A stretch of 64,000 nucleotides of DNA from Minisyncoccota bacterium. Its GTDB lineage: Bacteria > Patescibacteriota > Minisyncoccia > 2-02-FULL-40-12 > GWA2-44-9. The stretch covers positions 2,697-66,696 of the forward strand of contig JAGOSO010000005.1 of NCBI GenBank assembly GCA_018062285.1. The letters are read 5' to 3'. The position numbers and the translations under genes were made by a program. The notes under the pieces are model-generated. The model made no database searches. It was not told the DNA's origin and saw only the letters and a program-made list of their open reading frames with translations. This document shows, in pieces, positions 2,022 to 23,770 of the stretch (position 1 is its first letter; each line of letters opens with the position of its first letter).

Positions 2022-2115
2022 TATTATCATTCTTGACGAATTAAAAAAGTGATGTTAATCTCAGGCCAGTTTTTATAGCGAGACGAACCTTTAAAACTCG
2101 CAGAAGGGTAGAGTC

Positions 2116-3114
2116 ATGACCAAGGAGATAGTTTTGTCAGGCATCCGTGCGACGGCACGATTGCACTTCGGTAATTTCTTGGGGGCAGTGAGGAATTTCG
2201 TGGATTTCCAGTCGCAGGGCTATCAGGGTCTGTATTTCATCGCCGATCTTCACACTCTCACAACCCTGAAGGATCCGGAAGAGCTCCGTCGGAATCTCAT
2301 CGAGATCACCAAGGATTACCTCGCAGCTGGACTCGATCCGAACAAGTCGATCATCTACGCTCAGTCGAGTGTTCCGGAAATTTCGGAACTCAGTCTTCTT
2401 CTGAGTATGCTCCAGCCGATGAACGAACTTGAGGGCATCGCAACTCTCAAGGATCTTGTCCGCAACTCCAAGGAGAAGGTTAACCTCGGTATGCTCACGT
2501 ATCCTGTTTTGATGGCGGCTGATATCCTTGGTCCCCAGGCGACACTTGTGCCTGTCGGGGAAGATCAGGAGCCGAACGTCGAGCTGGCACGTGAGCTTGC
2601 TCGACGGTTCAACAACCGGTTTGGTCAAACGTTTGTGGTGCCGGAGATGATGAAAGACATGGTTATGGTTCCAGGCCTCGATGGCCGGAAGATGAGCAAG
2701 TCTGATTCCGACAACACAATCGACATCAATTACACGCGAGATGAAATTTCGAAGCGATATCATGCGCGAGGCGTCACTGATACTCAGAGGTTGAGGGTCT
2801 CCGATCCTGGAGATCCTTACAATCGTTGTCGCTCGGTTTATCCTGTGCACGAAATTGTGACACCATTTGAACGGGAAAAGAGAACCATTGCCAATCTTTG
2901 CCTTGGGGGCAATATCGGGTGCAGGACCTGTAAAGGGATTCTTGTTGACAGTATCGCTGCTGTTCTTGAACCGTTTCAGGCGGCTCGGGCTGATCTGGCT
3001 AGCAAGGATGCGATGGTCCGAGAAATTCTTCATGAGGGTGGTATCAGGGCTCGGGCAATCATTCGGCCCACGCTTGAAGCTGTTCAAGACAAGATGGGTG
3101 TTGTCGTGTACTAA
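2116..3114 (+). CDS. trpS: tryptophan--tRNA ligase (class I aaRS) with C-terminal Cys4 (Fe-S-type) motif
   Basis: HIGH-region LHFGNFLGA and KMSKS (RKMSKSD) are present. Length is 332 aa. The C-terminus has C-x23-C-x6-C-x2-C (NRCRSV...NLCLGGNIGCRTCKG). The SD sequence GAAGGG lies upstream. GC is about 52%. Confidence 0.9.
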   Translation: MTKEIVLSGIRATARLHFGNFLGAVRNFVDFQSQGYQGLYFIADLHTLTTLKDPEELRRNLIEITKDYLAAGLDPNKSIIYAQSSVPEISELSLLLSMLQPMNELEGIATLKDLVRNSKEKVNLGMLTYPVLMAADILGPQATLVPVGEDQEPNVELARELARRFNNRFGQTFVVPEMMKDMVMVPGLDGRKMSKSDSDNTIDINYTRDEISKRYHARGVTDTQRLRVSDPGDPYNRCRSVYPVHEIVTPFEREKRTIANLCLGGNIGCRTCKGILVDSIAAVLEPFQAARADLASKDAMVREILHEGGIRARAIIRPTLEAVQDKMGVVVY

Positions 3115-3136
3115 TTTCGACGAAACAAAAAACAAA

Positions 3137-3165
3137 GGGGCGACCATCTGGTCGCCCCTCTTTTA
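3137..3165 (+). terminator. rho-independent terminator after trpS
   Basis: Hairpin GGGGCGACC-ATCT-GGTCGCCCC followed by TCTTTT. Confidence 0.7.
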
Positions 3166-3167
3166 AT

Positions 3168-3198
3168 AAAAAAATGCCCTCCCGTTGGTAAGGGAGGG
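3168..3198 (-). terminator. terminator hairpin downstream of tRNA-Trp (minus strand)
   Basis: CCCTCCC-GTTGGTAA-GGGAGGG stem-loop. On the minus strand it is followed by CATTTTTTT. Confidence 0.5.
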
Positions 3199-3199
3199 T

Positions 3200-3274
3200 T
3201 GGCGGGCACTGGGAGAGTCGAACTCCCGTATGCGGTTTTGGAGACCGCTGTCCTAGCCACTGAACGAAGTGCCC
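3200..3274 (-). tRNA. trnW: tRNA-Trp (anticodon CCA), CCA end encoded
   Basis: The minus-strand sequence GGGCACT-TC-GTTC-AGTGGCTA-GGAC-A-GCGGT-CTCCAAA-ACCGC-ATAC-GGGAG-TTCGACT-CTCCC-AGTGCCC-G-CCA folds as a cloverleaf. It has a 7-bp acceptor stem, U8, a GG-containing D-loop, a TTCGACT T-loop, and an anticodon loop CU-CCA-AA. Confidence 0.85.
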
Positions 3275-3319
3275 GCACGAAGGTGCAGTGACAGCATTTT
3301 AGCTCAGAGCCTTATAAAA

Positions 3320-3364
3320 GTCAATTTTTAAATAAAACGGGCGGGACCAGAAGGTCCCGCCCGG
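3320..3364 (-). terminator. terminator after the GCS2-like gene (minus strand)
   Basis: CGGGCGGGACC-AGAA-GGTCCCGCCCG hairpin at 3338-3363. On the minus strand it is followed by TTTTATTTAAAAATT. Confidence 0.5.
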
Positions 3365-3368
3365 GGGT

Positions 3369-4130
3369 TTAAAGCAGCGCGTCTTTGCAGATCTGGTGAC
3401 ACCGAATGGCCCAGGCGAGAATTTCAGTCACGTCTGGCGTTGCGCCAAACATTCTGAATTCAATTGTGCCGTGAGTCGAAATGCGGATGATGTGCCAGCA
3501 GTTCCGTGGTTTCTTCCAGAACCCGTTCTTGTTGGCGTACTTCTCGAAATCGCCCCAGTTCTTGTAGGTGGGTGGCTGGAAATTCGGCGCCATGATCTTG
3601 TAGATCTTGAGGCGTTCGCCGTTGGATTTGTCGCCGGCTGCGCACAGTTCGGGGATGTGTTTGATGGCCGCGTTGTAGGCGCGAATGGCCTGTCTTGGCG
3701 AGCCCATACCGACGTGGACATGTGTGCCAGCGACCCGGCAAGCTGCCCGGATCTTTTCCACTGTCATATCCTTCGTGATTTTCTGGTATCGACCAGTTGG
3801 ATCGGGATAGATGTCGAGTGGCATGTCGAACGGAGCCACTTCTTGGTGGAGCACCTCGAAGCCAAGGCGCACCCGGTCTTTTTCCAACATGTTCCTTAGA
3901 TCGATGAGGGCATCACCGATCATCTGGACTGGATGGGGTTTGGTCCGAGTCTCCAGCTGGCAGGCTGAGAGTTCATATCCGTACAAGCCATTGTTGGGCA
4001 GTTCGGGAATGAACTTCGGAGCGAGTGGGGAGATGATTCCATCTTTGACGAAGAAGCATTCTCTTTCAACGCCAAGATGCAGATGTCTGTCTTTGTTGAA
4101 CTCAAACTTTCTGCGAAAGGCTGCTGACAT
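3369..4130 (-). CDS. carboxylate-amine ligase, glutamate-cysteine ligase family 2 (GCS2/YbdK-like), short form
   Basis: The N-terminal HLHLGVEREC (E-x-E), the central GTHVHVGMG, and the C-terminal GTIEFRMFGATPD all match GCS2/YbdK signature motifs. SD AGGAG lies 7 nt upstream of the ATG. GC is about 53%. Confidence 0.55.
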   Translation of the reverse strand: MSAAFRRKFEFNKDRHLHLGVERECFFVKDGIISPLAPKFIPELPNNGLYGYELSACQLETRTKPHPVQMIGDALIDLRNMLEKDRVRLGFEVLHQEVAPFDMPLDIYPDPTGRYQKITKDMTVEKIRAACRVAGTHVHVGMGSPRQAIRAYNAAIKHIPELCAAGDKSNGERLKIYKIMAPNFQPPTYKNWGDFEKYANKNGFWKKPRNCWHIIRISTHGTIEFRMFGATPDVTEILAWAIRCHQICKDALL

Positions 4131-4321
4131 GGGAGCTCCTGTCCTAATTGCTTGTTAAGTTGCTTGTCTTACTGGCCCCAAACTTAACATATTTTGATTT
4201 TTTTTGTCAACCAATATCAGGTTTTTTATTCGAGATTAATTATTATAATTTGTCAAATTCATAATAAAAGAGTAAAGTTGAGCCTAAGGTCATTTGTTGG
4301 TCCCACCGCAGCTATAAAATA

Positions 4322-4981
4322 ATGGAATACCCAATCAGAATTAATAAATATGTTAGAGAGCTAGGATTGGCTTCACGACGTGAGGCCGATCTTCTTGTTG
4401 AGGAAGGTAAGGTTTTTATCAATGGCAAAAAAGCAGAGGCAGGGACAATGGTCCAAGAAAGCGACAAAGTCGTGGTAAAAGGTGAACAAAAAAAGTTTGA
4501 ATATTTGGCTTACTATAAACCTCGTGGGTTAGCCACCCAGGACTTAAAAGGCAAAAAGAGCGTCATTACTCTTTGGGAAGAAAGAGGGCTTTATCCTATC
4601 GGAAGATTAGATAAAGAATCTGAAGGGCTTTTGCTTTTAACCAATGATGGCCGTTTTGCTCGTGAAGTTTTATCAAAAGACACTAAATACGAAAAAGAAT
4701 ACGTGGTTGAGGTAAAAGAAAATATTCGAGCCGGTATTCCTGACATTTTTGCATCAGGCATGAAGACAGAAGGTCTAGGTAAGTTGTTGCCAGCCAAAGC
4801 CAAGATTATAAACCCAAATACTCTATCCGTGATTTTGATTGAAGGTAAGCGCCATCAAATCAGAGTCATGCTCAGTGAACTCAAATACACAATCACTTCG
4901 CTCAAGCGAATTAGAATCGGTGATATTAAACTCGGCAGTTTGAGGGCTAGTCAGACTCGGGCAATTACGCCCAAGATCTAG
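4322..4981 (+). CDS. rRNA pseudouridine synthase, RsuA/RluB family (S4 domain + catalytic domain)
   Basis: N-terminal S4 RNA-binding region (IRINKYVRELGLASRREADLLVEEGKVFINGK) and the catalytic motif PIGRLDKESEGLLLLTNDG. Length 219 aa. Confidence 0.8.
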   Translation: MEYPIRINKYVRELGLASRREADLLVEEGKVFINGKKAEAGTMVQESDKVVVKGEQKKFEYLAYYKPRGLATQDLKGKKSVITLWEERGLYPIGRLDKESEGLLLLTNDGRFAREVLSKDTKYEKEYVVEVKENIRAGIPDIFASGMKTEGLGKLLPAKAKIINPNTLSVILIEGKRHQIRVMLSELKYTITSLKRIRIGDIKLGSLRASQTRAITPKI

Positions 4982-5667
4982 TTGTAGCTAGGAGAATCTT
5001 TGTAGACAAACTTCTTGAACCGCGACCAGGCGGTTTTTGGTTTTTTGATTACCTGGATGACTTTGCCGTTTACTAAGTAGTTGTCTAAGTCATCGCGGTG
5101 AATAAAAATTGGAGCAAAGCTAGCACTGGATTCAGAAAGGAGGATAATGCGCTGGTTGTCACTGTCTTTGAAATAGCGTTTGATGTTAGCCATGCCATCA
5201 ATGATAGACAAGACATAATCACCGTTGTGGACACTACTAAAAGTTGGATCGACTAAAACATAATCACCATCCTCAACATTTTCACCGTTGATGTTGGCCT
5301 TGTTCATGGAATGGCCCGAAGCTTTGATGGCGAATATACCTTTTTTCTTGCTTAGGAGTTTTCCCGAGACACGGAGATAACCTTGAGCTTCTTGATCGGC
5401 GTATGCAGTGGCTGGTCCGCAGTTGGCAGTACCAAGGATGGGGATAGCCAATAGGGAATTGCGCTGTAACGCGCCAGGTCTCGTTTTAACCATGACTTTG
5501 GCCAAGCGATCCATTTGGATGAGACCGTTCTTTTCCAGCTGGAGAAGATGATGTTTAATTTTTTGGGGTGATGTTTCATTGATTAGTTTGCCTATTTCCC
5601 TAAGACTCATGTTGGCTAGATCGTTTTCTCCTGCCAGCGCTAATAATTTTTCTTGTAGATCGTGCAT
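4978..5667 (-). CDS. lexA: LexA-family transcriptional repressor (S24 peptidase) with a short C-terminal extension
   Basis: N-terminal wHTH. Ser nucleophile in ASGHSM. Lys in MANIKRY. There are about 20 extra Lys-rich C-terminal residues. It overlaps the rsuA stop by 4 nt. Confidence 0.8.
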   Translation of the reverse strand: MHDLQEKLLALAGENDLANMSLREIGKLINETSPQKIKHHLLQLEKNGLIQMDRLAKVMVKTRPGALQRNSLLAIPILGTANCGPATAYADQEAQGYLRVSGKLLSKKKGIFAIKASGHSMNKANINGENVEDGDYVLVDPTFSSVHNGDYVLSIIDGMANIKRYFKDSDNQRIILLSESSASFAPIFIHRDDLDNYLVNGKVIQVIKKPKTAWSRFKKFVYKDSPSYN

Positions 5668-5715
5668 ATGTTTATTTGAGTTAGGTTATCATGTGTCAAT
5701 TGTAACAAGTAATGT

Positions 5716-5735
5716 TGTCCACAGTCAATTGGACA
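5716..5735. promoter_or_regulatory. palindrome TGTCCA-N8-TGGACA in the lexA / arginine-kinase divergent intergenic region (candidate operator)
   Basis: TGTCCACAGTCAATTGGACA. It sits between two GTCAATTG direct repeats (5695 and 5724). It does not match the classical GAAC-N4-GTTC or CTGT-N8-ACAG boxes, so this is speculative. Confidence 0.2.
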
Positions 5736-5838
5736 CTCTTGACGGCATAAAATGTGAGCACGGCTATTTGAATATTGTTTATATTTGTGTATTATAGCCA
5801 AGCGAATATAACAAAGTCGCCTGAGGAGACACAAAACA

Positions 5839-6867
5839 ATGGACAACACAGAACAACAATCGTTGATGAAAAAGTTCTTGACCCCAGAGGTCAAGGAGAA
5901 GCTGAAGGATGTCGTTTCTCCTTCTGGTTTAGTTTTGGCTGACCTGACTCGCTCTGGTGATGAGAACCCAGACAGCAGTGTCGGTGTCTATTCAGCCGAC
6001 GAGGAGTCCTACTCTTTGTTCGCGCCGTTGTTCGACCCTGTGATCAATGAATACCATGGTCATGGAACGGAAGATCAACACAAGAGAGATCTTGATATTG
6101 CACATCTCGGTGAGATTGGCGATCTTGACCCAACCGGGGAATCGATCGTTTCAACTCGTATCCGTGTCGGGCGCAATCTCAAGGGTTTCCCATTCGCTCC
6201 GGGGATTACCCGTGAACAGCGTTTGGAAGTTGAACGTCGCGTTGTCGATGCTCTTTCGACTCTCACCGGCGATTTGGCGGGTACCTACTATCCGCTCGCT
6301 GGCATGTCCGAAGAAGTTCGTCAAAAGCTACAGGATGATCATTTCTTGTTCAAGCAAGGAGATCGGTTCCTTGCAAGTGCTGGCGCCAATCGTGATTGGC
6401 CAGAAGGTCGTGGAATTTTTCATTCCGCCGACAAGCGTTTCTTGGTCTGGGTGAACGAAGAAGACCAGCTCCGCATCATTTCGATGCAACAGGGTGGCAA
6501 CATCCGTGAGGTCTTCGCTCGTCTCGCCACAGCAATCGAGACTCTCGAGAAGAAGCTCGAGTTCGCTTACTCTGATCACCTCGGGTATCTTTCGAGTTGT
6601 CCGACCAACCTTGGCACTGCCATGCGCGCTAGCGTGCATGTGAAGTTGCCACTCTTGAGTCAGGCGCCTGATTTCAAGGCCATCTGCGCCGAGATCGGTT
6701 TGTCGGTTCGAGGTGTGGATGGAGAACACTCTGAAAGCAAGGGTGGTGTCTATGACATCTCCAACAAGCGTCGTCTTGGCATCTCTGAAGTTCAGGGTGT
6801 GCTGAATGTCGCTAGTGGTGTCTCCAGCTTGATCGAAGACGAAAAAGAACTCGCTTCAAAGCAGTAA
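5839..6867 (+). CDS. ATP:guanido phosphotransferase, eukaryote-type arginine kinase (phosphagen kinase)
   Basis: Active-site CPTNLGT followed by MRASVHVKLP. Also SRIRVGRNLKGFPF, GTYYPLAGMSEEVRQKLQDDHFLFKQGDRFL, and GRGIFHSADKRFLVWVNEEDQLRIISMQQGG. All closely track metazoan/protist arginine kinase blocks rather than McsB. SD GAGGAG. GC is about 55%. Confidence 0.85.
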   Translation: MDNTEQQSLMKKFLTPEVKEKLKDVVSPSGLVLADLTRSGDENPDSSVGVYSADEESYSLFAPLFDPVINEYHGHGTEDQHKRDLDIAHLGEIGDLDPTGESIVSTRIRVGRNLKGFPFAPGITREQRLEVERRVVDALSTLTGDLAGTYYPLAGMSEEVRQKLQDDHFLFKQGDRFLASAGANRDWPEGRGIFHSADKRFLVWVNEEDQLRIISMQQGGNIREVFARLATAIETLEKKLEFAYSDHLGYLSSCPTNLGTAMRASVHVKLPLLSQAPDFKAICAEIGLSVRGVDGEHSESKGGVYDISNKRRLGISEVQGVLNVASGVSSLIEDEKELASKQ

Positions 6868-6884
6868 AAGCCTCAGGGTTTTTT

Positions 6885-6915
6885 GGCCGGGCCTCAGTGC
6901 CCGGCCATTTTAATT
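6885..6915 (+). terminator. terminator after arginine kinase
   Basis: GGCCGGG-CCTCAGTG-CCCGGCC followed by ATTTTAATTT. Confidence 0.5.
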
Positions 6916-6966
6916 TGTTTGACTAGTAGCGTTAAAACGTGTTATTGTATTTTTAAGGAGAATCGA

Positions 6967-7419
6967 ATGAACGAAGTCGAAGAAGGGGATGTGACTGTTG
7001 TTGAAACAAAGGATTGGTTCGGGATGTTGGCGGTAAGTAACATCCTAAAGGTCGCTGATCGTCTCGCAAAGATGCTTGAGGGTCGGAAGTACACCTTCGT
7101 GTCTTTCAATGAATTCAGCCAAGAGCCACCGAAGTTCTTGCGAGGTCAGAGTCTGACACCTGAAACTGCGCCCAATGGACAAGCCGTCCGTGCCGCCATT
7201 GGAGAAGGTCTGTACAACGGTGCTCGTTTGATTGTCTGTGATTCTGCTGGTGGTTGGCAAGTGCCAACCAACATGATGAATGAACTTCAACGTCACGACA
7301 GAAAGGACTCGAAGTTCAACTTTGTTGGAGGCAGGACTTTCGTCGTGTCTTATAAGGCCGGTGCCGGCAACATGTTGATCTGGATGGTCTCCGTCGAACC
7401 CGACGAATTTGAACAGTGA
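6967..7419 (+). CDS. hypothetical protein (150 aa), GC-rich, co-located with arginine kinase
   Basis: Strong SD AAGGAG lies 7 nt upstream of the ATG at 6967. The ORF-track start at 6883 is a longer alternative. No motif recognised. Confidence 0.5.
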   Translation: MNEVEEGDVTVVETKDWFGMLAVSNILKVADRLAKMLEGRKYTFVSFNEFSQEPPKFLRGQSLTPETAPNGQAVRAAIGEGLYNGARLIVCDSAGGWQVPTNMMNELQRHDRKDSKFNFVGGRTFVVSYKAGAGNMLIWMVSVEPDEFEQ

Positions 7420-16102: not shown

Positions 16103-18448
16103 ATGAATGATGTTGAATCTATCAAGAAATATGTTCGGGCAGCAAACTACGTTTCGGCAGCACAGATTTATTTGAGGGATAACTTTTTATTATCTGATAA
16201 ACTCACTTCGGATGATATTAAACCTCGCTTGCTTGGTCATTGGGGGACTTGCCCAGGGATTAACTTTTTATACGCCAACCTTAACTATTTAATTAAAAAG
16301 CACAGCATCGACATGATGTTTGTTTTGGGTCCAGGGCATGGCTTTCCAGCATTGCAGGCGAATTTGTACATGGAAGGTACGTTGAATAAGTTCTATCCAT
16401 CCGCTATCGCTAACGTTGAAGGTTTGGGCTATCTCGCTAGTCAGTTTAGTTGGCCATATGGTTTTCCAAGTCACTCTAACCCAGGCGCACCAGGCGTAAT
16501 TCTTGAAGGCGGGGAATTGGGTTATTCATTATCGACTTCTTATGGTGCTATTCTGGATAACCCAGACTTGATTGTGACTTGTTTGGTGGGTGATGGTGAA
16601 GCCGAAACTGGTCCAACGGGCACAGCTTGGCATTTGAATAAATTTATTGACCCAGCAACGAATGGGGCCGTGTTGCCAGTGCTTCATTTGAATGGCTACA
16701 AGATTTCTGGCCCAACTATTTTTGGTAGAATGTCGAATCGAGAATTAAAGTCCTTGTTCTATGGTTATGGCTATGAGCCTTTAATTGTCGAAGGCACCGA
16801 CAAGGTGATTTACGAAAAAATGGTAGACACTTTGGACAACGCCTACCGCATGATTCGTTCTATCCAGACCTCAGCCCGCAGCGGTCAGGCGATTGTGTCA
16901 CCACGTATGCCGATGATTATTTTGCGCACACCAAAAGGTTGGACAGGTATAAAAAAAATAAAGGGTGAAAAAATTGAAGGCAATGCTTTGGCCCACCAAG
17001 TTGTGGCGCCGTTAGCCAAATCTGATAAGACAGAATTAAAAGCTTTAGAAAAATGGTTGCAGTCTTACAAAATTGAAGAATTATTTAATCCCGAGACTGG
17101 TTTTTGTGAAGAAGTTAAATCTATCATCCCTGAAGAAGGATTTAAAATGGGTTCAAATCGGCACACTTTTGGTGGAGAAGTCACAAAAGATTTAATTTTA
17201 CCAAAGGTGGATGAGTTTGCTGAAGATTCTGCGGTTCCCGGTACGGTTGGTTCCAGTTCTATGGTCCGAACTGGTCTATATTTGAACGAAGTTTTTAAAT
17301 TAAATAAAGAGCAAGAAAATTTTAGATTATTCTCGCCAGATGAAACCTATTCCAATAAATTAGACACAGTTTTCCAGACTACTTCACGCGCTTTTGTGTG
17401 GCCAATCAAAGAATGGGACAAAGACATGAAGCCTAATGGCCGAGTAATTGAAATGCTTAGTGAACATTCTTTGCAAGGTTTGATGCAGGGCTATGTTTTA
17501 ACAGGCCGACATGGAATCTTTGCGACCTATGAAGCCTTTGTGCAGATTGTTTCCAGTATGTTGGATCAATACGCCAAGTTTTTGAAACAATCTAAAGAAT
17601 TCCCATGGCGTGGAGCAGTCCCATCAATCAATTATATTTTGACTTCTTCTGGTTGGCGCCAAGAACATAACGGTTTCTCGCACCAGAATCCCGGATTCAT
17701 CACCGATATTTTACAAAAGAATGGTTGCAATGCTCATGTGTATTTCCCGCCAGATGGTAATTCAACCTTGGCTGTAGTGGAAAAATGTTTAAATTCCAAA
17801 AATGGCATCAATGTTATCGTGGCCGGTAAAACCCTTGAACCACGTTGGCTAACCCCAGAGCTAGCGGCTCGTCAGTTAGAAAACGGGATGATGATTTGGG
17901 ATTTCGCCAGCGATGCGAGCCCGGACATTGTTTTCAGTGGTGTTGGAGAATATTTGACTAAGGAAGCTTTGGCGGCAATGACGATGATCAAGAATCACAC
18001 CCCAGAAGTGAAGATCAGGTTCGTAAGCATCATGGAGTTGTCTTCTTTGGGTATGGGTAACGCTGATTGCAAAGAGCCATTAAGATTTGATGAATATTTC
18101 ACAAGTGATAAGCCGGTAATATTTAATTTCCACGGTTACCCTCAAACCTTAAAACAGATTTTGTTTGATTCAGGCGAAGCCAGTTCTCGTTTCTCCGTTC
18201 ATGGCTATATTGAAAACGGTTCTACGACCACGCCATTCGATATGCATATCCGTAACCAGACCAGTCGTTATCATTTGGTCATTGATGCTTATGAAAGATT
18301 AATGAAGAGTGGGGTAGTGGACGCCAACAAAGCAGATGATATTATTGCTCAATATAAAACCAAGATTCAACAGCACAGCGAATTCATTCGTAAGAATGGC
18401 GTCGACCCTGAAGAAATTGACCAATGGGAATGGAAAAGAAAAATTTAG
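16103..18448 (+). CDS. xfp: xylulose-5-phosphate/fructose-6-phosphate phosphoketolase
   Basis: 781 aa. Phosphoketolase signature EGGELGYS. TPP-binding GDGEAETG. TATAAT lies 9 nt upstream of the ATG. Confidence 0.9.
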   Translation: MNDVESIKKYVRAANYVSAAQIYLRDNFLLSDKLTSDDIKPRLLGHWGTCPGINFLYANLNYLIKKHSIDMMFVLGPGHGFPALQANLYMEGTLNKFYPSAIANVEGLGYLASQFSWPYGFPSHSNPGAPGVILEGGELGYSLSTSYGAILDNPDLIVTCLVGDGEAETGPTGTAWHLNKFIDPATNGAVLPVLHLNGYKISGPTIFGRMSNRELKSLFYGYGYEPLIVEGTDKVIYEKMVDTLDNAYRMIRSIQTSARSGQAIVSPRMPMIILRTPKGWTGIKKIKGEKIEGNALAHQVVAPLAKSDKTELKALEKWLQSYKIEELFNPETGFCEEVKSIIPEEGFKMGSNRHTFGGEVTKDLILPKVDEFAEDSAVPGTVGSSSMVRTGLYLNEVFKLNKEQENFRLFSPDETYSNKLDTVFQTTSRAFVWPIKEWDKDMKPNGRVIEMLSEHSLQGLMQGYVLTGRHGIFATYEAFVQIVSSMLDQYAKFLKQSKEFPWRGAVPSINYILTSSGWRQEHNGFSHQNPGFITDILQKNGCNAHVYFPPDGNSTLAVVEKCLNSKNGINVIVAGKTLEPRWLTPELAARQLENGMMIWDFASDASPDIVFSGVGEYLTKEALAAMTMIKNHTPEVKIRFVSIMELSSLGMGNADCKEPLRFDEYFTSDKPVIFNFHGYPQTLKQILFDSGEASSRFSVHGYIENGSTTTPFDMHIRNQTSRYHLVIDAYERLMKSGVVDANKADDIIAQYKTKIQQHSEFIRKNGVDPEEIDQWEWKRKI

Positions 18449-19506
18449 TTATTAATTTAGGTAGTTCGTCCAAGAAGTGTGCGCTTTATGGTGAAGCCGA
18501 ACTTTGTGGCATTCATTTAGAAAAAACCAGCACCGGATTCATCGGTAACTTCTGGCAGGGTGCTGACAAAAAAGAAATTGAAGTAACCGATTCTGATTAC
18601 AATGATGCGGGCATCTTTTTGATTAAAATTTCTGGCACTGATATTGCTGATATCGCCAAGATAGGGATTAGGGTCGTTGCCCCTGGAACTTTTTTCCAAG
18701 AAGACAGATTGATTGATGATACCTACGTTTCTAAATTAACTGAGGCTCAGACCATGGCTCCGTTGCACATTGCTCCTGTCCTTGAGGAATTAAAAAAGAT
18801 TAAGGCTTGGTCCGGAGAGATTCCATTGATGGGAATTTCTGACAGTGCTTTTTATAAATCAATGCCAATTGAGGCCAAGTTGTATGGTTTGCCTAAAGAC
18901 GTAACTGAACAAAACGAAATTTACCGCTACGGCTATCACGGTATTTCGATGGCTTCAGTTTTAAGTACATTACAAAAATCAGAAGGCGGTATTCCTGAAA
19001 AAATAATCATCTGTCATTTGGGTAGTGGTTCCACAATCACCGCATTAAAGAATGGCCAGCCAGTTGATACTTCGATGGGCTTTACGCCTTTGGAGGGCGT
19101 ACCAATGGGTTCGCGCGTCGGCAATATTGATGCTTCAGCTGTTTTGTATCTTTTGAAAAAGGGGATGGATGCCAATTCTCTAGAAGAAATGTTTTATAAA
19201 AAATCTGGCTTGTTGGGCTTGAGTGGTCAGACACCTTTTGTAAAAGAATTAATTGATTTAGAAAAATCAGGTGACGCTAATGCAACCCAAGCCTTATTTG
19301 TGTACGCTCGTGCTGTTAAAAAATATATAGGTGCTTATTCTGCCTTATTGGGTGGAGTTGATTTGATTGTCTTCACGGCGACAATCGGTGAACGCTCCGA
19401 CTATATGCGCGACAAAATTACTTCTGGCTTAGAATACTTAAATACCAAAACTCTCGTCGTCCTCACAGACGAAATGTCCGAAATAGCCTCTCGACTAAAG
19501 TCATAA
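18430..19506 (+). CDS. ackA: acetate/propionate-family kinase (acetate kinase)
   Basis: NLVINLGSSSKKCALY (ASKHA N-terminus), YGYHGISM, HLGSGS, DTSMGFTPLEG, and GVDLIVFTATIGERS. The start overlaps the xfp 3' end by about 19 nt. Confidence 0.8.
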   Translation: MEKKNLVINLGSSSKKCALYGEAELCGIHLEKTSTGFIGNFWQGADKKEIEVTDSDYNDAGIFLIKISGTDIADIAKIGIRVVAPGTFFQEDRLIDDTYVSKLTEAQTMAPLHIAPVLEELKKIKAWSGEIPLMGISDSAFYKSMPIEAKLYGLPKDVTEQNEIYRYGYHGISMASVLSTLQKSEGGIPEKIIICHLGSGSTITALKNGQPVDTSMGFTPLEGVPMGSRVGNIDASAVLYLLKKGMDANSLEEMFYKKSGLLGLSGQTPFVKELIDLEKSGDANATQALFVYARAVKKYIGAYSALLGGVDLIVFTATIGERSDYMRDKITSGLEYLNTKTLVVLTDEMSEIASRLKS

Positions 19507-19511
19507 TTCTC

Positions 19512-19540
19512 TTGACGTAAAACCATTTCTGCTTTATTAT
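19512..19540 (+). promoter_or_regulatory. sigma70-like promoter (TTGACG-17-TATTAT) upstream of the small membrane protein gene
   Basis: -35 TTGACG at 19512-19517, a 17-nt spacer, and -10 TATTAT at 19535-19540. A GGAGC-GCAT-GCTCC hairpin sits in the leader. Confidence 0.45.
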
Positions 19541-19605
19541 AGCCCCACCAGGGAGCGCATGCTCCTTATGGTCGCACGTTAACAAATCGCTAAGGAGAAA
19601 GTGCT

Positions 19606-19809
19606 ATGGGTGCAAGTGCTGAAGTTGTCGCCACTGTGTTGGCCCTCGTTGTTGTTTCGGCTGGTCTCGGCTACAGGATTGCCAAAGACCAGGGCCGGAG
19701 CCCTGTGATGGGTCTCTTGGTTGGTGCTGGCCTTTCCATTTTCGGTCTCGGTATTCTGCTGATGGTTGGGAAGAAGATCCAGCATCGCAACAATCATCAT
19801 TCTCACTAA
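19606..19809 (+). CDS. small membrane protein (67 aa, 2 TM)
   Basis: SD AAGGAGA lies 8 nt upstream. Two hydrophobic helices. GC-rich. Confidence 0.5.
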   Translation: MGASAEVVATVLALVVVSAGLGYRIAKDQGRSPVMGLLVGAGLSIFGLGILLMVGKKIQHRNNHHSH

Positions 19810-19818
19810 GGAGTAGTT

Positions 19819-21333
19819 ATGGACAAGAGAAAAGCCACAGGAGTAATCCTTACCCTAGTCGGTGCCGGCATCGGCGTTTGGGTCAGTCTGATCATCGCTG
19901 ACATTCTGACGTTCTGGTGGGTCTACTCAAGTATCACCAACGTCATGTCTGATTACGGCATCAGCGAATATATCGGCAAGATTATTGCCGTTGTGTTCGC
20001 TGCCATGGTCTGCATGGTCATCAACAAGATTCTGGCCAGCATGGCCAAGCGAAACAAGAAATGGGTCCCGATGTTGGCAGGCCTCATGGCGGCGTGGTTC
20101 GTGGTCATGTACTTTGTCTCATCGCCTTACACATCAAGCTTGTTCAATCCTTTTTCTGGGAAAGCGCAGGCCGTGTACCTGAAAATGCCTGATGGGAAGA
20201 TTAAGGCTTTCCCCAAGGGCTTGAAGTTCGATCCTGACACAGGCAAACCTCTGAAGGACTTCGATCCGGCAACGGCCGAAGAGTTTCAGAAGCAGGTTGG
20301 CGCCAAGAAAACATCCTCGAGCTATTTTGGTGATTCGTCATCCATAAAACTCACGAGTTTTATGGATGACATTGAAATTCGTGTAGACAAAGTTCAAGTT
20401 GCACCCGATCGAACGGTTTTACATTTTTCTGCTGGGCCCAACAGTTCGCTCGATGCTTCAGTCGTAATGCCCAGGTCTATTTATCTGACAGACGATAATG
20501 GACGGGTGATCAATTACGTTTCTGATGATGTTGGTTACGAAAACCAGACTATCGCGCTTATTTACGATCGGAAGATACGCCCTGTCAAAGTCGGTGAGAT
20601 TTTTCACTATACGATGACTTTCGGAGCCCTGAGAGAAGGTACTAGCCAGTTGGTATTGCATTACAATCAAGAGGGAACAACAGGTTCGGATGCTGACCTT
20701 ACGGGCTTATTTTCTATGGCCGAAAATATTCCGGCCATACCCGCTCCACCTCCACCTTCTCCGCCTCCGCCATCACCACCAGTGCTGGATAAAGTTGACC
20801 TACCACCTCCACCGAAGGAAACAAGAGATGATCCAACTCTCTATGTTCTGAGTCTTGGTGCGGAGACAACTCGTTTCCATGTCAAAGACATCATCACAAG
20901 AACAGTGAAGGTTAATCGGTATCGTCGTCCCGAAGAAGCTTTTAAGCTGTATGGGTGGATCAACGAAACCAGTGAGTGCAAATTTTCCTCTGTGCCCGCT
21001 GCTGGGCCAGCCGAGGTGGAGATAACTTTTTTCAGAATCGACCCCGATGAAGTTCAGGTTGGGAAAGATTTTGAGAAGGTTTATGATGTTCTGGGTTTGA
21101 AACCAGATCCATACGCCGCAGCTGCTGCGAATGAAGCTGACCCAGATTTGGCCAGAAAATATCCAAGTATTACTCAGTGGCGACATGGTCAGAATGACTG
21201 GCAGTATCAAGTCGTTATTGCCACGACTGATTACAGGGATAAAATCACCTTCTTTTGTGGAGACACTCCCGCATCTTGGTCTTCAATTACTTCGGGGAGA
21301 ACTATTTGGTGGTACACTGGCATCAAGAAATAG
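19819..21333 (+). CDS. membrane protein with proline-rich linker and C-terminal globular domain (hypothetical)
   Basis: SD AAGGAG. 3-4 N-terminal TM helices. PAPPPPSPPPPSPPVLDKVDLPPPP. GC is about 55%. Confidence 0.5.
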   Translation: MDKRKATGVILTLVGAGIGVWVSLIIADILTFWWVYSSITNVMSDYGISEYIGKIIAVVFAAMVCMVINKILASMAKRNKKWVPMLAGLMAAWFVVMYFVSSPYTSSLFNPFSGKAQAVYLKMPDGKIKAFPKGLKFDPDTGKPLKDFDPATAEEFQKQVGAKKTSSSYFGDSSSIKLTSFMDDIEIRVDKVQVAPDRTVLHFSAGPNSSLDASVVMPRSIYLTDDNGRVINYVSDDVGYENQTIALIYDRKIRPVKVGEIFHYTMTFGALREGTSQLVLHYNQEGTTGSDADLTGLFSMAENIPAIPAPPPPSPPPPSPPVLDKVDLPPPPKETRDDPTLYVLSLGAETTRFHVKDIITRTVKVNRYRRPEEAFKLYGWINETSECKFSSVPAAGPAEVEITFFRIDPDEVQVGKDFEKVYDVLGLKPDPYAAAAANEADPDLARKYPSITQWRHGQNDWQYQVVIATTDYRDKITFFCGDTPASWSSITSGRTIWWYTGIKK

Positions 21334-21360
21334 CTGATACATGTTGTATCCAAAACTATC

Positions 21361-21390
21361 GAGCCCGCTTCGTGCGGGCTCTTTTTTTTA
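21361..21390 (+). terminator. rho-independent terminator
   Basis: GAGCCCGC-TTCGT-GCGGGCTC-TTTTTTTT. Confidence 0.7.
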
Positions 21391-22638
21391 CGCATTTTTG
21401 CCGGCGACGAAGCCGGTGGTCCAGCAGAGTTGGAGAGAATAACCGCCGGTGGGGCGGGCGATGTTTAAAATATCACCGGTGACAAAAAGATTTTGAATTT
21501 TGCGAGAGCGCATTGTTTTGAAATCAATTTCTTCTAAAGCAATACCACCGGAAGTGATAACGGCTTTCTCAGTGCCTAATAGGCCTGAGACTCGCATTGG
21601 CAAGGCTTTGATTAGTTGGACCAGGTTCAAACGGGCTTCGCGACTGACGCTGTGGCAAGGTGTTTCTGGATCGATATCAGCAAGGATGCCAAGAGTTTGC
21701 ATTAAGGCATTAGGAAATAGTTCGCTAGAAATATTTTTGAACTTTTTATTAATCTCGCCTTTGAATGATTCTAAAATCGCTGTATCAACTTGTTTGTGAT
21801 CGAGAGAGGGGAGTAAGTCAGCAACAAGAGTAACGGGGGCGTATTCCAAGCGCTCTCGGATTTCGCCGGACATATTTAAAACACCAGGACCGCTAATTCC
21901 AAAATGAGTAAAAAGAAGTTTACCTTTGTGGGTACTTTGTTTGTAGTTATTTTGCATCAAAGAGAACTTAACCATCGGCAAACTAATACCGGAAAGTTCT
22001 TTGACCCAAGACTCGCTTAGTTTAACTGGTACGAGAGATGGATTTGATTCAATAACATTGTGGCCTAAATCTTTTAACCAACCAAAGCCATCACCAGTTG
22101 AACCGGTTTCAGGATGAGACTTACCACCAGTAGCAAGAATGAAAGACTTGGCTTTAATTTCGTCGCCCATGATTCGGACGGCTTCAATCGAGCCATTTTT
22201 ATTCATTACAAAATTTTCAACGGCAGTGTAGGTTTTTATTGTGACATTGCCTTCACGCATGTAGTCGCTCAAAACATTCCAAACCGATTGGGCCTTGTCG
22301 CTAGTAGGGAAGACGCGTAACTCATTTTCAACTTTAGTGGTCATGCCTCGAGAATTAAAAAATTCTAAAGCTTGGGTGGTATCAAATTGCGAGAAAGCGG
22401 AAAATAAAAACTTACCGTCTTTGCCAAATTTTTCTAATAGTTTGCGAGTGTCGGGTTCGGCATTGGTAACATTACATCGGCCACCACCGGTAATCAAAAG
22501 CTTCTTGCCGAGTGTGGCATTCTTTTCAATTAATAAAACCTTTTTGCCGTTAATTCCTGCGGTTCCAGCGGCCATCATTCCCGCTGGTCCACCGCCAATA
22601 ACCACGACATCCCAGATTGTAGAAGCCTTAGTTTCCAT
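21388..22638 (-). CDS. NAD(P)/FAD-dependent oxidoreductase, HI0933/BaiN-like flavoprotein family
   Basis: N-terminal DVVVIGGGPAGMMAAGTAG followed by GGGRCNVTN, both typical of the HI0933 family. 416 aa. Confidence 0.8.
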   Translation of the reverse strand: METKASTIWDVVVIGGGPAGMMAAGTAGINGKKVLLIEKNATLGKKLLITGGGRCNVTNAEPDTRKLLEKFGKDGKFLFSAFSQFDTTQALEFFNSRGMTTKVENELRVFPTSDKAQSVWNVLSDYMREGNVTIKTYTAVENFVMNKNGSIEAVRIMGDEIKAKSFILATGGKSHPETGSTGDGFGWLKDLGHNVIESNPSLVPVKLSESWVKELSGISLPMVKFSLMQNNYKQSTHKGKLLFTHFGISGPGVLNMSGEIRERLEYAPVTLVADLLPSLDHKQVDTAILESFKGEINKKFKNISSELFPNALMQTLGILADIDPETPCHSVSREARLNLVQLIKALPMRVSGLLGTEKAVITSGGIALEEIDFKTMRSRKIQNLFVTGDILNIARPTGGYSLQLCWTTGFVAGKNA

Positions 22639-22730
22639 GTGTTTATTAGTGTATCATACTATTGACTTTTAGCCTAAAAACGTGCTATAATTAAGACTAA
22701 AGCTGAACCTTTTCAATCAGGGGGAAGACC

Positions 22731-23333
22731 GTGGAACATGTCAGGCTCGCCATCGCAGCGGCGGTTGTCATTATCCATGGCACCGCATTCTTTTTCTACA
22801 CCAAGCAGATGAAGCAGGGGCTGACTCGCCCCAACATCACGACTTGGAGCATTACGATGTTTCTCATGGTGCTCAACACCCTGACGTTTCGGGAGATGAG
22901 CAAGGACTTGATAGCAACGGCGCAATTGTTTATCGGCACCACAGGGTGTTCGATTGTTTTCTTTTACGCGCTAGCGAAAGGAAAGTTCTCGGCCCCAGGC
23001 AGAACGGGAGGTTGGTCACTGTTGTTTGGGGTCATTGCCGCAATCGTGTGGTATATGTTTCGAGAAGCATCATGGGCAAACATGATTGTTCTCGTGGCAT
23101 TGTTCGTGGCTCTTATACCGACTTGGGACGGCGTGTATCACGACCCATTTAAAGAGATGCCTCGATCTTGGGCTATGTGGGCATTCGCCTATCTATTAAC
23201 GACGGTGAACATGGTTCTTAATCCGTCGGTCCAACTCGTCGCTCTGGTCAATCCAATTTCTGCAGTGATTGCCCATGGGGTGGTTGCTGTTCTTTGTTCG
23301 GAATTCCGTAAGCGTAATTTCAGGATGCGCTGA
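22731..23333 (+). CDS. integral membrane protein (hypothetical), GC-rich
   Basis: About 6 TM helices. GTG start as in the ORF track. The start is uncertain. Confidence 0.4.
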   Translation: MEHVRLAIAAAVVIIHGTAFFFYTKQMKQGLTRPNITTWSITMFLMVLNTLTFREMSKDLIATAQLFIGTTGCSIVFFYALAKGKFSAPGRTGGWSLLFGVIAAIVWYMFREASWANMIVLVALFVALIPTWDGVYHDPFKEMPRSWAMWAFAYLLTTVNMVLNPSVQLVALVNPISAVIAHGVVAVLCSEFRKRNFRMR

Positions 23334-23349
23334 GGCGCGAGGAGAGGAT

Positions 23350-23754
23350 ATGGCTGTAGGTGGCAAGGCAATCGAGAAGATTTTCTATGCTTCATTGCTG
23401 GGTGTAATCATCATTTCCATCGTGACGGTTTTGTCTCTGACGAGACAGAATCAAACCCTCAAGTCAGAGAATGCGGTGCTCAGGCAGAGTCTCGCTCAGC
23501 TCGCTCGCGAGAACACCGAATCAAAGATTACGCATATCCCCCATGAGTACGACACTGCAGGCAAGGGCATCATCGGATTGGTGCTCGATGGTCGTTACAT
23601 TTTTCAAGTCCCCGGTGCCGCTTCAATAGTTGCCAACGATGTCTCGACTACCATTTTCAAAAGTTATCATGGTGGTCCACCGCCAGCGAAGATTTATGAA
23701 GTAATGCAAGACGGTAAGAAACGTCTCGGTTATGTTCAGGTACTACCTAGGTAG
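23350..23754 (+). CDS. membrane-anchored hypothetical protein (135 aa)
   Basis: SD GAGGAGAGG lies immediately upstream of the ATG at 23350. One TM helix. The ORF-track start at 23269 is less likely. Confidence 0.45.
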   Translation: MAVGGKAIEKIFYASLLGVIIISIVTVLSLTRQNQTLKSENAVLRQSLAQLARENTESKITHIPHEYDTAGKGIIGLVLDGRYIFQVPGAASIVANDVSTTIFKSYHGGPPPAKIYEVMQDGKKRLGYVQVLPR

Positions 23755-23770
23755 TGTAAGTCGGCCTCAC

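What the first reader, a model, noticed from the sequence alone, without database searches (positions are those of the whole stretch)
2100..23760. Mosaic of short GC-rich islands (52-57% GC) in a 33-42% GC background
Hand counts on 60-nt samples give about 52-57% GC for trpS plus the GCS2-like ligase (2.1-4.1 kb), the arginine kinase and its neighbour (5.8-7.5 kb), the two membrane proteins with a consensus promoter (19.5-21.3 kb), and the two membrane proteins at 22.7-23.8 kb. Flanking genes (rsuA, lexA, NUDIX, pyrD, xfp, the GT cluster) are 33-42%. Each island is 1.5-2 kb, is delimited by terminators, and carries no integrase or transposase. This pattern suggests repeated acquisition of single genes or pairs from a higher-GC donor. 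An assembly chimera is the alternative.
Basis: seen in the sequence. Interest (0 to 1): 0.55.

Follow-up and report, generated by a model that had tools for sequence, protein, structure and literature searches.

The report
GC-rich gene patches in CPR genome
A tiny uncultured (CPR/Paceibacteria) bacterium with a 40% GC genome carries about ten genes in six short, self-contained patches at 48-53% GC; they are real, partly shared with its nearest sequenced relative, and most likely genes gained or swapped in from other CPR bacteria, which is an ordinary kind of event.

Summary
The GC steps are real at all four stated places. Only trpS/GCS2 reaches 52-55%; the other islands are 48-51%. Two more islands lie outside the range (50.6-52.1 and 59.2-60.5 kb). 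Island genes have GC3 0.50-0.66 against a background of 0.38±0.04 (z 3-7).

An assembly chimera is excluded for islands 1-2. An independent Logan assembly is 100% identical over window 1-9124. A related genome (L005/L092, 42% GC) is colinear and shows the same GC steps at the same aligned positions.

The organism is a Paceibacteria (CPR) MAG. TrpS and ArgK have only CPR-type close homologues, so no foreign-phylum donor is seen.

Island codon usage fits neither the clade's core genes nor its highly expressed cold-shock genes. In the slot between HI0933 and ABCF it is independent of the host in five genomes.

Best reading: lateral gains and cassette swaps within CPR, at several different times, into a lineage whose own background became AT-rich. 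"Recent, from one donor" fails. trpS-tRNA-Trp-GCS2 predates the split from the relative and stays GC-rich despite about 50% synonymous turnover per lineage, which neutral decay hardly explains.

The kind of event is known. Interest is modest.

The parts
2116..3114 (+). trpS (tryptophan-tRNA ligase), island 1; GC 0.515, GC3 0.565
   Evidence: Pfam tRNA-synt_1b and TIGR00233. It is 100% identical to a protein NCBI labels 'MAG Candidatus Pacebacteria' tryptophan-tRNA ligase. The next hits are 86% (L005) and then at most 71%, and every hit that carries a taxon name is CPR.
3134..3161 (.). bidirectional hairpin terminator after trpS
   Evidence: the hairpin is conserved with compensatory changes in L005
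3200..3274 (-). tRNA-Trp(CCA) gene between trpS and the GCS2-like gene; it accounts for the GC-rich spacer
   Evidence: ARAGORN and Rfam RF00005 at 60 bits; it is aligned with the L005 copy
3369..4130 (-). GCS2 / YbdK-like carboxylate-amine ligase, island 1; GC 0.531, GC3 0.657
   Evidence: weak Amidoligase_2 match, GCS2, TIGR02050 at 1.6e-14; 73% identical to the L005 orthologue
5715..5735 (.). palindrome TTGTCCACAGTCAATTGGACA, a putative LexA operator overlapping the -35 of the lexA promoter, just upstream of ArgK
   Evidence: occurs once per genome, always beside lexA, in W, L005, L008, L093 and L094
5839..6867 (+). arginine (phosphagen) kinase, island 2; GC 0.514, GC3 0.539
   Evidence: Pfam ATP-gua_PtransN plus ATP-gua_Ptrans. 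PDB 4rf6 gives about 400 bits per domain against 88 bits for McsB. The CPR homologues are 62-77% identical.
6884..6907 (+). terminator after ArgK
6967..7419 (+). 150-aa protein of unknown function, island 2, with its own promoter (6919-6948) and terminator (7439-7463); GC3 0.54
   Evidence: it is only 34% identical to the GC-rich 146-aa gene at the same place in L005
19512..19540 (+). promoter-like site TTGACG-17-TATTAT at the start of island 3
19606..19809 (+). 67-aa two-helix membrane protein, island 3
   Evidence: annotated in NCBI as MBP9822401.1
19819..21333 (+). 504-aa membrane-anchored protein with a Pro-rich linker, island 3; GC 0.477, GC3 0.497; terminator at 21361-21381
   Evidence: 412 representative clusters are related, the best at 40-55% identity
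22662..22691 (+). resident promoter TTGACT-18-(TG)TATAAT in front of the variable slot, conserved in five genomes
22731..23333 (+). 200-aa multi-pass membrane protein, island 4; GC 0.506, GC3 0.597
   Evidence: 25% identical to the 198-aa gene in the same slot of L092, while the flanks are 92-97% identical
23269..23754 (+). 161-aa ORF (135 aa if started at the ATG at 23347), one-helix protein, island 4; GC 0.49, GC3 0.525
50616..52133 (+). B12-binding radical SAM enzyme in the glycosyltransferase cluster, outside the finding; GC 0.485, GC3 0.502
59211..60545 (-). sugar C-methyltransferase (Methyltransf_13/_23/_14), outside the finding; GC 0.503, GC3 0.607

Best explanation
The window is a contig of a Paceibacteria (CPR/Patescibacteria) MAG. 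Its own genes have about 40% GC (GC3 0.38). Ten genes in six patches have 48-53% GC (GC3 0.50-0.66).

Each patch is a self-contained transcription unit. It has an AT-rich promoter of the resident type, one or two GC-rich ORFs, and a hairpin terminator.

I read the patches as genes gained, or swapped in at fixed slots, from other CPR lineages whose codon usage is balanced (GC3 about 0.5-0.7) and prefers G-ending Lys/Glu/Gln codons. The events happened at different times:
- The gene(s) in the slot between HI0933 and ABCF, and the 150-aa gene after ArgK, were exchanged after the split from the nearest sequenced relative.
- trpS-tRNA-Trp-GCS2 became GC-rich before that split and has been inherited vertically since.
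- ArgK sits in an older LexA-ArgK...HI0933-ABCF frame and was lost in the relative.

The contrast is sharpened because the recipient lineage's background itself fell from about 0.7 to 0.4 GC at four-fold sites.

Shown: the steps; contiguity of islands 1-2; synteny; a codon signature that is foreign and independent of the host; CPR-only close homologues.

Inferred: transfer as the cause; the kind of donor; the order of events. Some further force must also keep island 1 GC-rich, such as GC-biased gene conversion or repeated re-import.
For: 1. Nine island genes are raised together in all three synonymous classes. Means are GC4 0.52, C/(C+T) at NNY codons 0.55, and G/(A+G) at Lys/Glu/Gln codons 0.55. 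The background means are 0.37, 0.32 and 0.36. Mann-Whitney p is about 1e-5 for each class, and no background gene is raised in all three.

2. G-ending Lys/Glu/Gln usage is 0.33-0.36 in the core genes of W, L005, L093 and L094, although their GC4 ranges from 0.38 to 0.73. In the islands it is 0.44-0.71. The islands are therefore not leftovers of the clade's earlier composition.

3. The cold-shock genes of four genomes of the clade show GC4 0.14-0.33 and G-ending Lys/Glu/Gln 0.15-0.40. The islands therefore do not have the profile of translational selection.

4. The slot between HI0933 and ABCF has a conserved promoter and a conserved downstream ABCF promoter. The ORFs between them differ or are only 25% identical. 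The slot gene has G-ending Lys/Glu/Gln 0.60-0.79 against 0.28-0.38 in its flanks in all five genomes. Its GC4 is above the flanks in the low-GC hosts and below them in the higher-GC hosts.

5. ArgK is absent at the L005 locus. It is present, with a conserved upstream box and 5' UTR, in L008, and next to HI0933 in L009.

6. The GC-normalised dinucleotide distance of islands from background is 0.146. The null distribution has mean 0.046 and maximum 0.119.

7. TrpS in two other low-GC CPR genomes is not an island.

8. Published work finds 83% of detected transfers into Patescibacteria to come from other Patescibacteria, with a mean divergence of 23.7% (PMC12455944).
Against: No donor was found. 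Apart from strain variants and L005, the nearest TrpS is 71%, the nearest ArgK 77% and the nearest 504-aa homologue 55% identical.

No gene tree was compared with a species tree.

There are no mobility genes, no border repeats, and no copies on plasmids or phages.

trpS and GCS2 are as diverged from L005 as their flanks are: nucleotide identity 0.72-0.77, and four-fold-site identity 0.41 against 0.47 in the flanks. Yet both genomes keep them GC-rich. Neutral decay since a pre-split import would need an ancestral GC4 of 0.73-0.89. It would also need 0.8-1.0 G/C-ending two-fold codons, more than any relative shows.

ArgK identity to L008 and L009 (74-76%) equals that of its neighbours (69-81%), as vertical descent predicts.
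Confidence: 0.55

Rival explanations
1. There was no transfer. The island genes are vertically inherited, and their synonymous sites are held GC-rich by a force specific to each locus: GC-biased gene conversion at recombination-prone loci, or selection for GC-rich mRNA. The rest of the genome meanwhile follows an AT-biased mutation pressure.
For: The island 1 block is colinear with L005, including its spacers. The GC profiles of the two genomes superimpose and no mosaic segment is seen.

Synonymous turnover in trpS and GCS2 equals that of the flanks, yet both lineages stay GC-rich. This is close to impossible for neutral decay.

All codon classes are raised, as gBGC predicts (Lassalle et al. 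2015, PMC4450053).

ArgK is GC3-richer than its host's core genes in all four genomes examined.

The G-ending Lys/Glu/Gln usage of trpS in W and L005 (0.64-0.67) exceeds that of every other trpS sampled (0.41-0.47), which suggests the state arose within this lineage.
Against: In L093 and L094 the slot gene has lower GC4 than its flanks (p = 0.013 and 0.001). A force favouring GC cannot produce that.

The occupants of the slots are non-homologous, or 25-34% identical, beside flanks at 80-97%.

The short spacers inside and around the islands, apart from the tRNA and the hairpins, are AT-rich.

No recombination signal was tested at population level.
Confidence: 0.22
2. One reading: recent, repeated acquisition of single genes or pairs from one higher-GC donor, still un-ameliorated.
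For: The steps are sharp and lie at gene borders. Each island has its own promoter and terminator. The slot genes and the 150-aa gene were evidently replaced after the W/L005 split.
Against: Island 1 is present and equally GC-rich in a relative at about 75% nucleotide identity.

No island protein has a relative at 90% identity or more outside strain variants.

Signatures differ between neighbouring island genes. At NNY codons, C/(C+T) is 0.49 in trpS and 0.71 in GCS2.

All close homologues are CPR.
Confidence: 0.1
3. The islands are relics. The ancestor was GC-richer, like L093 and L094, and these genes simply lag behind the genome-wide shift towards AT.
For: The next relatives have housekeeping GC3 of about 0.6, similar to the islands. 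Orthologous background genes dropped by 0.2-0.27 in GC3.
Against: Core genes of L093 and L094 have G-ending Lys/Glu/Gln usage of 0.34-0.35 and GC4 of 0.69-0.73. The islands have 0.44-0.71 and 0.46-0.67, and a partial AT shift cannot raise G-ending usage.

Synonymous turnover in the islands is as high as in the flanks, so there is no lag.
Confidence: 0.06
4. Assembly or binning chimera: GC-rich pieces from another organism were spliced into the contig.
For: None beyond the composition itself. Islands 3, 5 and 6 have no independent check of their junctions.
Against: Logan contig SRR11088367_88218 is 100% identical to window 1-9124, which covers islands 1 and 2.

L005/L092 has GC-rich genes at the same positions, with alignable junctions.

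The promoter in front of island 4 is the clade's own.

The steps coincide with start and stop codons, not with arbitrary points.
Confidence: 0.02

Closest known systems
Individually transferred genes and small genomic islands in Patescibacteria (mSystems 2025, PMC12455944)
   Same: Short regions of atypical composition in streamlined CPR genomes. The donors are mostly other Patescibacteria (83% of events). The transfers are mostly not recent (mean divergence 23.7%). The functions are metabolic and membrane-related.
   Different: Here no donor-recipient pair was identified. One island is shared by two genus-level relatives. The slots have conserved resident promoters. The GC excess persists beyond neutral expectation.
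Classical genomic islands (tRNA-linked, integrase-bearing, 10-200 kb)
   Same: Atypical GC and dinucleotide signature. A tRNA gene lies inside island 1. ArgK is patchily distributed.
   Different: The patches are 1-2 kb. They have no integrase, no direct repeats at their borders and no mobility genes. The tRNA is internal and cognate to trpS, not a border.
Amelioration of horizontally acquired DNA (Lawrence and Ochman 1997; from my own knowledge)
   Same: Foreign genes start with donor composition and drift towards the host's. Islands with GC4 of only 0.46-0.48 but two-fold sites still GC-rich could be older imports.
   Different: For trpS and GCS2 the decay expected from the measured synonymous turnover has not happened in either of the two lineages.
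GC3 heterogeneity linked to recombination through GC-biased gene conversion in bacteria (Lassalle et al. 2015, PMC4450053)
   Same: GC3 is raised gene by gene, independently of optimal codons, and even against AU-ending optimal codons.
   Different: Recombination was not measured here. The slot genes in the higher-GC relatives have lower GC4 than their hosts, which gBGC does not predict.
Bacterial arginine kinases of eukaryotic type (Desulfotalea psychrophila, Myxococcus xanthus, Sulfurovum lithotrophicum; from my own knowledge)
   Same: A full phosphagen-kinase architecture (N-terminal plus catalytic domain) with about 50-57% identity to animal arginine kinases. The distribution is patchy and GC is atypical.
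   Different: Here it forms a clade of about 340-aa proteins at 62-77% identity, found on the CPR contigs fetched (L008-L011) and on many unnamed metagenomic contigs. It sits in a conserved position beside lexA. The paper library returned no report of it in CPR.

Membership tests
Laterally acquired genes (intra-Patescibacteria transfer) | Composition and codon usage atypical for the recipient genome | tested here: met
   GC3 z-scores are 3-7. All three codon classes are raised. The dinucleotide distance is 0.146 against a null maximum of 0.119.
Laterally acquired genes (intra-Patescibacteria transfer) | Patchy presence, or non-orthologous occupants, among close relatives at the same locus | tested here: met
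   ArgK is absent in L005. The slot genes are 25-34% identical or unrelated beside flanks at 80-97%. This is not met for trpS and GCS2, which are syntenic in L005.
Laterally acquired genes (intra-Patescibacteria transfer) | Gene tree incongruent with the species tree, or an identifiable donor | tested here: inconclusive
   The best hits are all CPR, but none is closer than 71-77%. Identity ratios against outgroups fall within the spread of the flank genes. No species tree was available.
Classical genomic island | Integrase or other mobility gene, and flanking direct repeats | tested here: not met
   No such Pfam domains were found. There are no border repeats.
Classical genomic island | Insertion next to a tRNA gene | tested here: inconclusive
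   tRNA-Trp lies inside island 1, between trpS and GCS2. It is not at a border, and it is conserved in L005.
gBGC-elevated recombining genes | GC raised at all synonymous classes, independently of optimal codons | tested here: met
   (the cold-shock gene profile differs)
gBGC-elevated recombining genes | Evidence of intragenic recombination at the same genes | not testable with these tools
   This needs population or read data. The pairwise W/L005 scan shows no mosaic.
Translational-selection codon bias | Same codon preferences as the highly expressed genes of the genome | tested here: not met
   Cold-shock genes of W, L092, L093 and L094 have GC4 0.14-0.33 and G-ending Lys/Glu/Gln 0.15-0.40. 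The islands have 0.46-0.67 and 0.44-0.71.
Assembly chimera | Junctions not reproduced by independent assemblies or by relatives | tested here: not met
   The Logan contig is identical over window 1-9124. L005/L092 has the same steps. Islands 3, 5 and 6 were not checked independently.
Phosphagen (arginine) kinase family | N-terminal helical domain plus catalytic domain, with the NEED and CPTNLGT motifs | tested here: met
   Pfam PF02807 plus PF00217. The alignment to 4rf6 shows NEEDQLRIISM and CPTNLGT.
Phosphagen (arginine) kinase family | Phosphorylates free arginine, rather than protein arginine as McsB does | not testable with these tools
   The score to arginine kinase is about 400 bits against 88 bits to McsB. 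All NCBIfam McsB models score below their cut-offs.

The most novel reading that the evidence does not exclude
A handful of orthologous genes (trpS, GCS2, perhaps ArgK) are held at a GC-rich synonymous equilibrium across genus-level divergence, in an otherwise AT-drifting CPR lineage. The force would be specific to each locus and favour GC, for example GC-biased gene conversion at loci that recombine often in naturally competent ultra-small bacteria. This would be a clean natural example of gene-specific, non-mutational control of base composition in CPR.
Probability: 0.2. Interest if true: 0.5.

Novelty: new member of a known kind. Interest (0 to 1): 0.3.

Why it matters
For annotation, the result means these GC-rich patches should not be trimmed from the MAG as contamination.

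For biology, it gives a concrete case of how streamlined CPR genomes exchange single transcription units at fixed slots fronted by a promoter. It also shows that composition alone gives the wrong age for such events: the strongest island is the oldest one.

The failure of trpS and GCS2 to ameliorate is a small but testable puzzle about what sets GC content in bacteria.

Separately, a eukaryote-type arginine kinase conserved beside lexA in a CPR clade suggests phosphagen energy buffering in fermentative episymbionts. I found no report of this.

Tried and rejected
1. A scan of metagenome contigs with TrpS alone found nothing. With a TrpS alignment it returned mostly non-CPR loci at 36-46% identity and only one CPR locus. 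It could not give the intended survey of trpS GC against flank GC across CPR.

2. A genome scan with RsuA gave only two distant loci.

3. The last contig look-up, for W HI0933, which was meant to test contiguity of islands 3-4 in the Logan assembly, returned no record.

4. The 336-aa antisense ORF that covers trpS was rejected as a gene. It follows from there being a single TTA/CTA/TCA codon. Synonymous permutations give a mean open stretch of 244 aa and a 95th percentile of 325 aa. It is not open in L006, L009 or L096.

5. Amino-acid composition (GC12, FYMINK/GARP) was tried as a test of residence time. It had no power, because the background shift is almost wholly at third positions.

6. RSCU correlation to core genes of the sister lineages as candidate donors was weak (0.29-0.37). 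The best match is to the islands of L005 (0.68).

7. Cluster look-ups for the homologues of the 504-aa protein gave no organism names.

8. Searches of plasmids and phages with ArgK gave only McsB-type hits and one hit at 40% identity.

9. No Rfam family other than tRNA is present in the window.

Full report
**Observation.**

The window as a whole has 41.1% GC.

Fifty background genes have GC 0.399±0.032 and GC3 0.378±0.040, with a maximum of 0.474.

The island genes have these GC and GC3 values:
- trpS: 0.515 / 0.565
- GCS2-like ligase: 0.531 / 0.657
- arginine kinase: 0.514 / 0.539
- its 150-aa neighbour: 0.49 / 0.54
- the 504-aa membrane protein: 0.477 / 0.497
- the 200-aa protein: 0.506 / 0.597
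- the 161-aa protein: 0.490 / 0.525

These are 3-7 between-gene standard deviations out in GC3.

Islands 2-4 are 46-54% in windows.

Two further outliers lie outside the stated range, in the glycosyltransferase cluster. One is a B12-radical-SAM enzyme at 50616-52133. The other is a sugar C-methyltransferase at 59211-60545(-).

No integrase or transposase domain occurs in any ORF scanned from 0.5 to 37.6 kb.

It also missed a 67-aa ORF at the head of island 3.

**Whose genome, and is it a chimera?**

The TrpS protein is identical to one from an NCBI MAG labelled Candidatus Pacebacteria/Paceibacterota, on a 70-kb contig.

An independent Logan assembly of run SRR11088367 yields a 15.6-kb contig that is 100% identical to window 1-9124. 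That stretch runs across islands 1 and 2 and all their borders.

A related genome is syntenic. It is contig JAXOUH010018551, held here as loci L005 and L092, with 42% GC. It has GC-rich genes at the same places:
- trpS (GC3 0.64);
- the ligase (0.69);
- a 146-aa gene after lexA (0.66);
- a 198-aa gene between HI0933 and ABCF (0.65).

Window 514-4962 aligns colinearly with L005 at 74.5% nucleotide identity, spacers included. The two GC profiles rise and fall at the same aligned positions.

A chimera is therefore excluded for islands 1-2 and is very unlikely for island 4. Islands 3, 5 and 6 lack an independent check of their junctions, because the last look-up failed.

**Best hits per gene.**

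- TrpS: 86% to L005, then at most 71%. Every hit that carries a taxon name is CPR: Parcubacteria group, Kaiserbacteria, Giovannonibacteria, Liptonbacteria, Pacebacteria.
- Arginine kinase: a clade of about 340-aa proteins at 62-77% identity on metagenomic and MAG contigs. The contigs I fetched (L008-L011) have CPR-like gene content. Two-domain eukaryotic kinases follow at 46-54%.
- The flank gene HI0933: 92% to L005, 81-84% to a next clade (L093, L094), then 69-75%.
- The 504-aa protein: a diverse, unnamed family of 412 representative clusters, the best at 40-55% identity. One homologue lies on a contig of the same length (13,920 nt) as a contig that carries an HI0933 homologue at 74%.

No donor from a foreign phylum appears. 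No island protein has a relative at 90% or more apart from strain variants.

**The background moved.**

L093 and L094 are the next relatives. Their identities to the window are LexA 84/82%, ABCF 85/84% and HI0933 82/81%. They have 47% GC, and their housekeeping genes have GC3 near 0.6.

Orthologous background genes in the window are 0.2-0.27 lower in GC3, with almost no change at first and second codon positions.

The mosaic is thus partly a product of the recipient lineage having become AT-rich at synonymous sites.

**What the islands are not.**

They are not relics of that earlier composition. Across the clade's core genes, G-ending Lys/Glu/Gln usage stays at 0.33-0.36 while GC4 ranges from 0.38 to 0.73. 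The islands have 0.44-0.71.

They are not the product of translational selection. The cold-shock genes of four genomes of the clade show GC4 0.14-0.33, C-ending NNY codons 0.53-0.67, and G-ending Lys/Glu/Gln 0.15-0.40. The islands are high in all three classes.

TrpS is not intrinsically GC-rich. In two other low-GC CPR genomes it sits only 0.04-0.05 above its flanks.

**Evidence for an outside origin.**

The slot between HI0933 and ABCF is the clearest case. Its anatomy is as follows:
- a promoter TTGAC-N17/18-(TG)TATAAT, conserved in five genomes;
- then one or two ORFs that differ between genomes;
- then a hairpin;
- then the conserved ABCF promoter.

The occupants of W and L092 are 25% identical, while their flanks are 92-97% identical. 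L093, L094 and L008 carry unrelated ORFs there.

In all five genomes the slot gene has G-ending Lys/Glu/Gln usage of 0.60-0.79, against 0.28-0.38 in its flanks. Its GC4 (0.50-0.71) is above the flanks in the low-GC hosts and below them in the higher-GC hosts L093 and L094 (p = 0.013 and 0.001).

A composition that does not follow the host points to genes drawn from an outside pool. It does not fit a host-driven push towards GC.

Three further observations fit this:
- The 150-aa gene after ArgK is 34% identical to its L005 counterpart.
- The small GC-rich genes between lepA and divIC in the two genomes are unrelated.
- ArgK is missing at the L005 locus. In L008 it follows the same lexA-side palindrome and shares a 5' UTR motif. 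In L009 it abuts HI0933-ABCF.

The window therefore keeps an older LexA-ArgK...HI0933-ABCF frame, with about 14 kb of ordinary-GC genes now in between.

Signatures differ between islands. For example, C-ending NNY usage is 0.49 in trpS, 0.71 in the ligase and 0.74 in the C-methyltransferase. So there was more than one source or more than one history.

Published work on 125 aquifer Patescibacteria reports the same kind of exchange: mostly within the phylum and mostly not recent (PMC12455944).

**The piece that does not fit simple acquisition.**

trpS and the ligase are as diverged from L005 as their flanks are. Amino-acid identity is 86% and 73%, against 66-94% for the flanks. Nucleotide identity is 0.77 and 0.72, against 0.75-0.79.

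At four-fold sites, identity is 0.47 in the flanks (n = 1309) and 0.41 in the two island genes. At two-fold sites, the excess identity over independence is 0.22 in the flanks and 0.26 in the island genes.

Each lineage has thus replaced about half of its synonymous sites. Under neutral relaxation towards the background, at most 47-51% of an initial GC excess would remain.

The ancestor would then have needed GC4 of 0.73 (estimated from W) to 0.89 (from L005). It would also have needed 0.8 to about 1.0 G/C-ending two-fold codons. No sampled relative reaches those values.

By Cauchy-Schwarz, variation in rate among sites only makes this bound stricter.

So island 1 has been kept GC-rich. This came about either through a force favouring GC, such as gBGC (Lassalle et al. 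2015, PMC4450053), or through repeated overwriting. No donor for overwriting is visible: the next TrpS is 71% identical.

I could not separate these possibilities without population data or non-stationary models.

**Verdict.**

The chimera alternative fails where it could be tested. The acquisition reading is partly right. It holds in the form of CPR-internal gain and cassette replacement, at several times, at slots fronted by a promoter, in a genome whose own background became AT-rich. It does not hold for a recent wave from one donor.

The kind of event is known in Patescibacteria. The specific slot anatomy and the failure of trpS and GCS2 to ameliorate are modest new details.

**Side observations.**

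- The arginine kinase is of the true phosphagen type. PDB 4rf6 gives about 400 bits per domain, against 88 bits for McsB. The paper library holds no report of it in CPR.
- A palindrome, TGTCCA-N8-TGGACA, sits once per genome beside lexA in five genomes. It overlaps the -35 of the lexA promoter and looks like the clade's LexA operator.

Noticed in passing
window 3200-3274 (-): A tRNA-Trp(CCA) gene sits between trpS and the GCS2-like gene, with its own promoter (3324-3296) and terminator (3198-3177). The synthetase therefore lies next to its cognate tRNA. The arrangement is conserved in L005.
   Followed up: partly
window 5839-6867 (+); L008 10001-11023; L009 9053-10081; L010 10001-11011: A eukaryote-type arginine (phosphagen) kinase forms a clade of about 340-aa proteins at 62-77% identity, found on the CPR contigs fetched and on many unnamed metagenomic contigs. 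Its best solved relative is a two-domain arginine kinase (PDB 4rf6). The paper library returned no paper linking arginine kinase to CPR. In all four genomes it is GC3-richer than the host's core genes.
   Followed up: partly
window 5715-5735; L005 14703-14723; L008 9882-9902; L093 16466-16486; L094 15965-15985: The palindrome TTGTCCACAGTCAAT(T/G)(T/G)GACA occurs once per genome, always beside lexA, and overlaps the -35 of the predicted lexA promoter. It is a candidate LexA operator for this CPR clade. In W and L008 the arginine kinase is transcribed divergently from it.
   Followed up: partly
window 50616-52133 (+) and 59211-60545 (-): Two more GC-rich genes lie outside the finding's range, inside the glycosyltransferase cluster: a B12-binding radical SAM enzyme (GC3 0.50) and a sugar C-methyltransferase (GC3 0.61).
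   Followed up: partly
window 502-4130; L006 10001-13921; L096 10001-14130: trpS, an AstE/AspA-like (succinylglutamate desuccinylase / aspartoacylase family) gene and a GCS2-like ligase are neighbours in distantly related CPR genomes. In L009 and L096 a chorismate-mutase-methyltransferase fusion follows trpS. This may be a conserved functional neighbourhood.
   Followed up: no
window 32440-35832 (+): A 1130-aa protein without Pfam match has GC2 0.51, GC4 0.21 and C-ending NNY usage of 0.61. This codon profile resembles that of the clade's cold-shock genes. It may be an abundant surface protein.
   Followed up: no
window 2137-3147 (-): A 336-aa antisense ORF covers all of trpS. It is explained by the near absence of TTA, CTA and TCA codons and is not conserved outside L005. 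It is not a gene.
   Followed up: yes
L005/L092, L008, L009 (assembly GCA_034680565.1): One NCBI assembly, whose contig numbers exceed 55,000, holds three contigs of 226-336 kb with CPR-like gene content, differing GC (42-47%) and differing gene order. It is evidently a metagenome or a host-associated assembly rather than a single genome.
   Followed up: no
window vs L093/L094: The W+L005 lineage dropped from about 0.7 to 0.4 GC at four-fold sites relative to its next relatives. First and second codon positions and A/G choice at Lys/Glu/Gln codons hardly changed. This is a clean, recent shift in synonymous composition within a CPR clade.
   Followed up: partly
plasmid NZ_CP110821.1 55251-56192 (hit H1): A homologue of the arginine kinase, 40% identical, lies on a plasmid of Candidatus Bandiella woodruffii, an endosymbiont of the ciliate Euplotes. 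It is annotated as hypothetical.
   Followed up: no
window 7409-21333 vs L008/L009: About 14 kb of ordinary-GC genes separate ArgK from HI0933 here. They include AAA_33, ceramidase, SET, AlkZ, a small RelA/SpoT, NUDIX genes, pyrD, xfp and ackA. In L008 and L009 the two genes are adjacent, so this is a rearrangement or insertion in this lineage. It is partly shared with L005.
   Followed up: no
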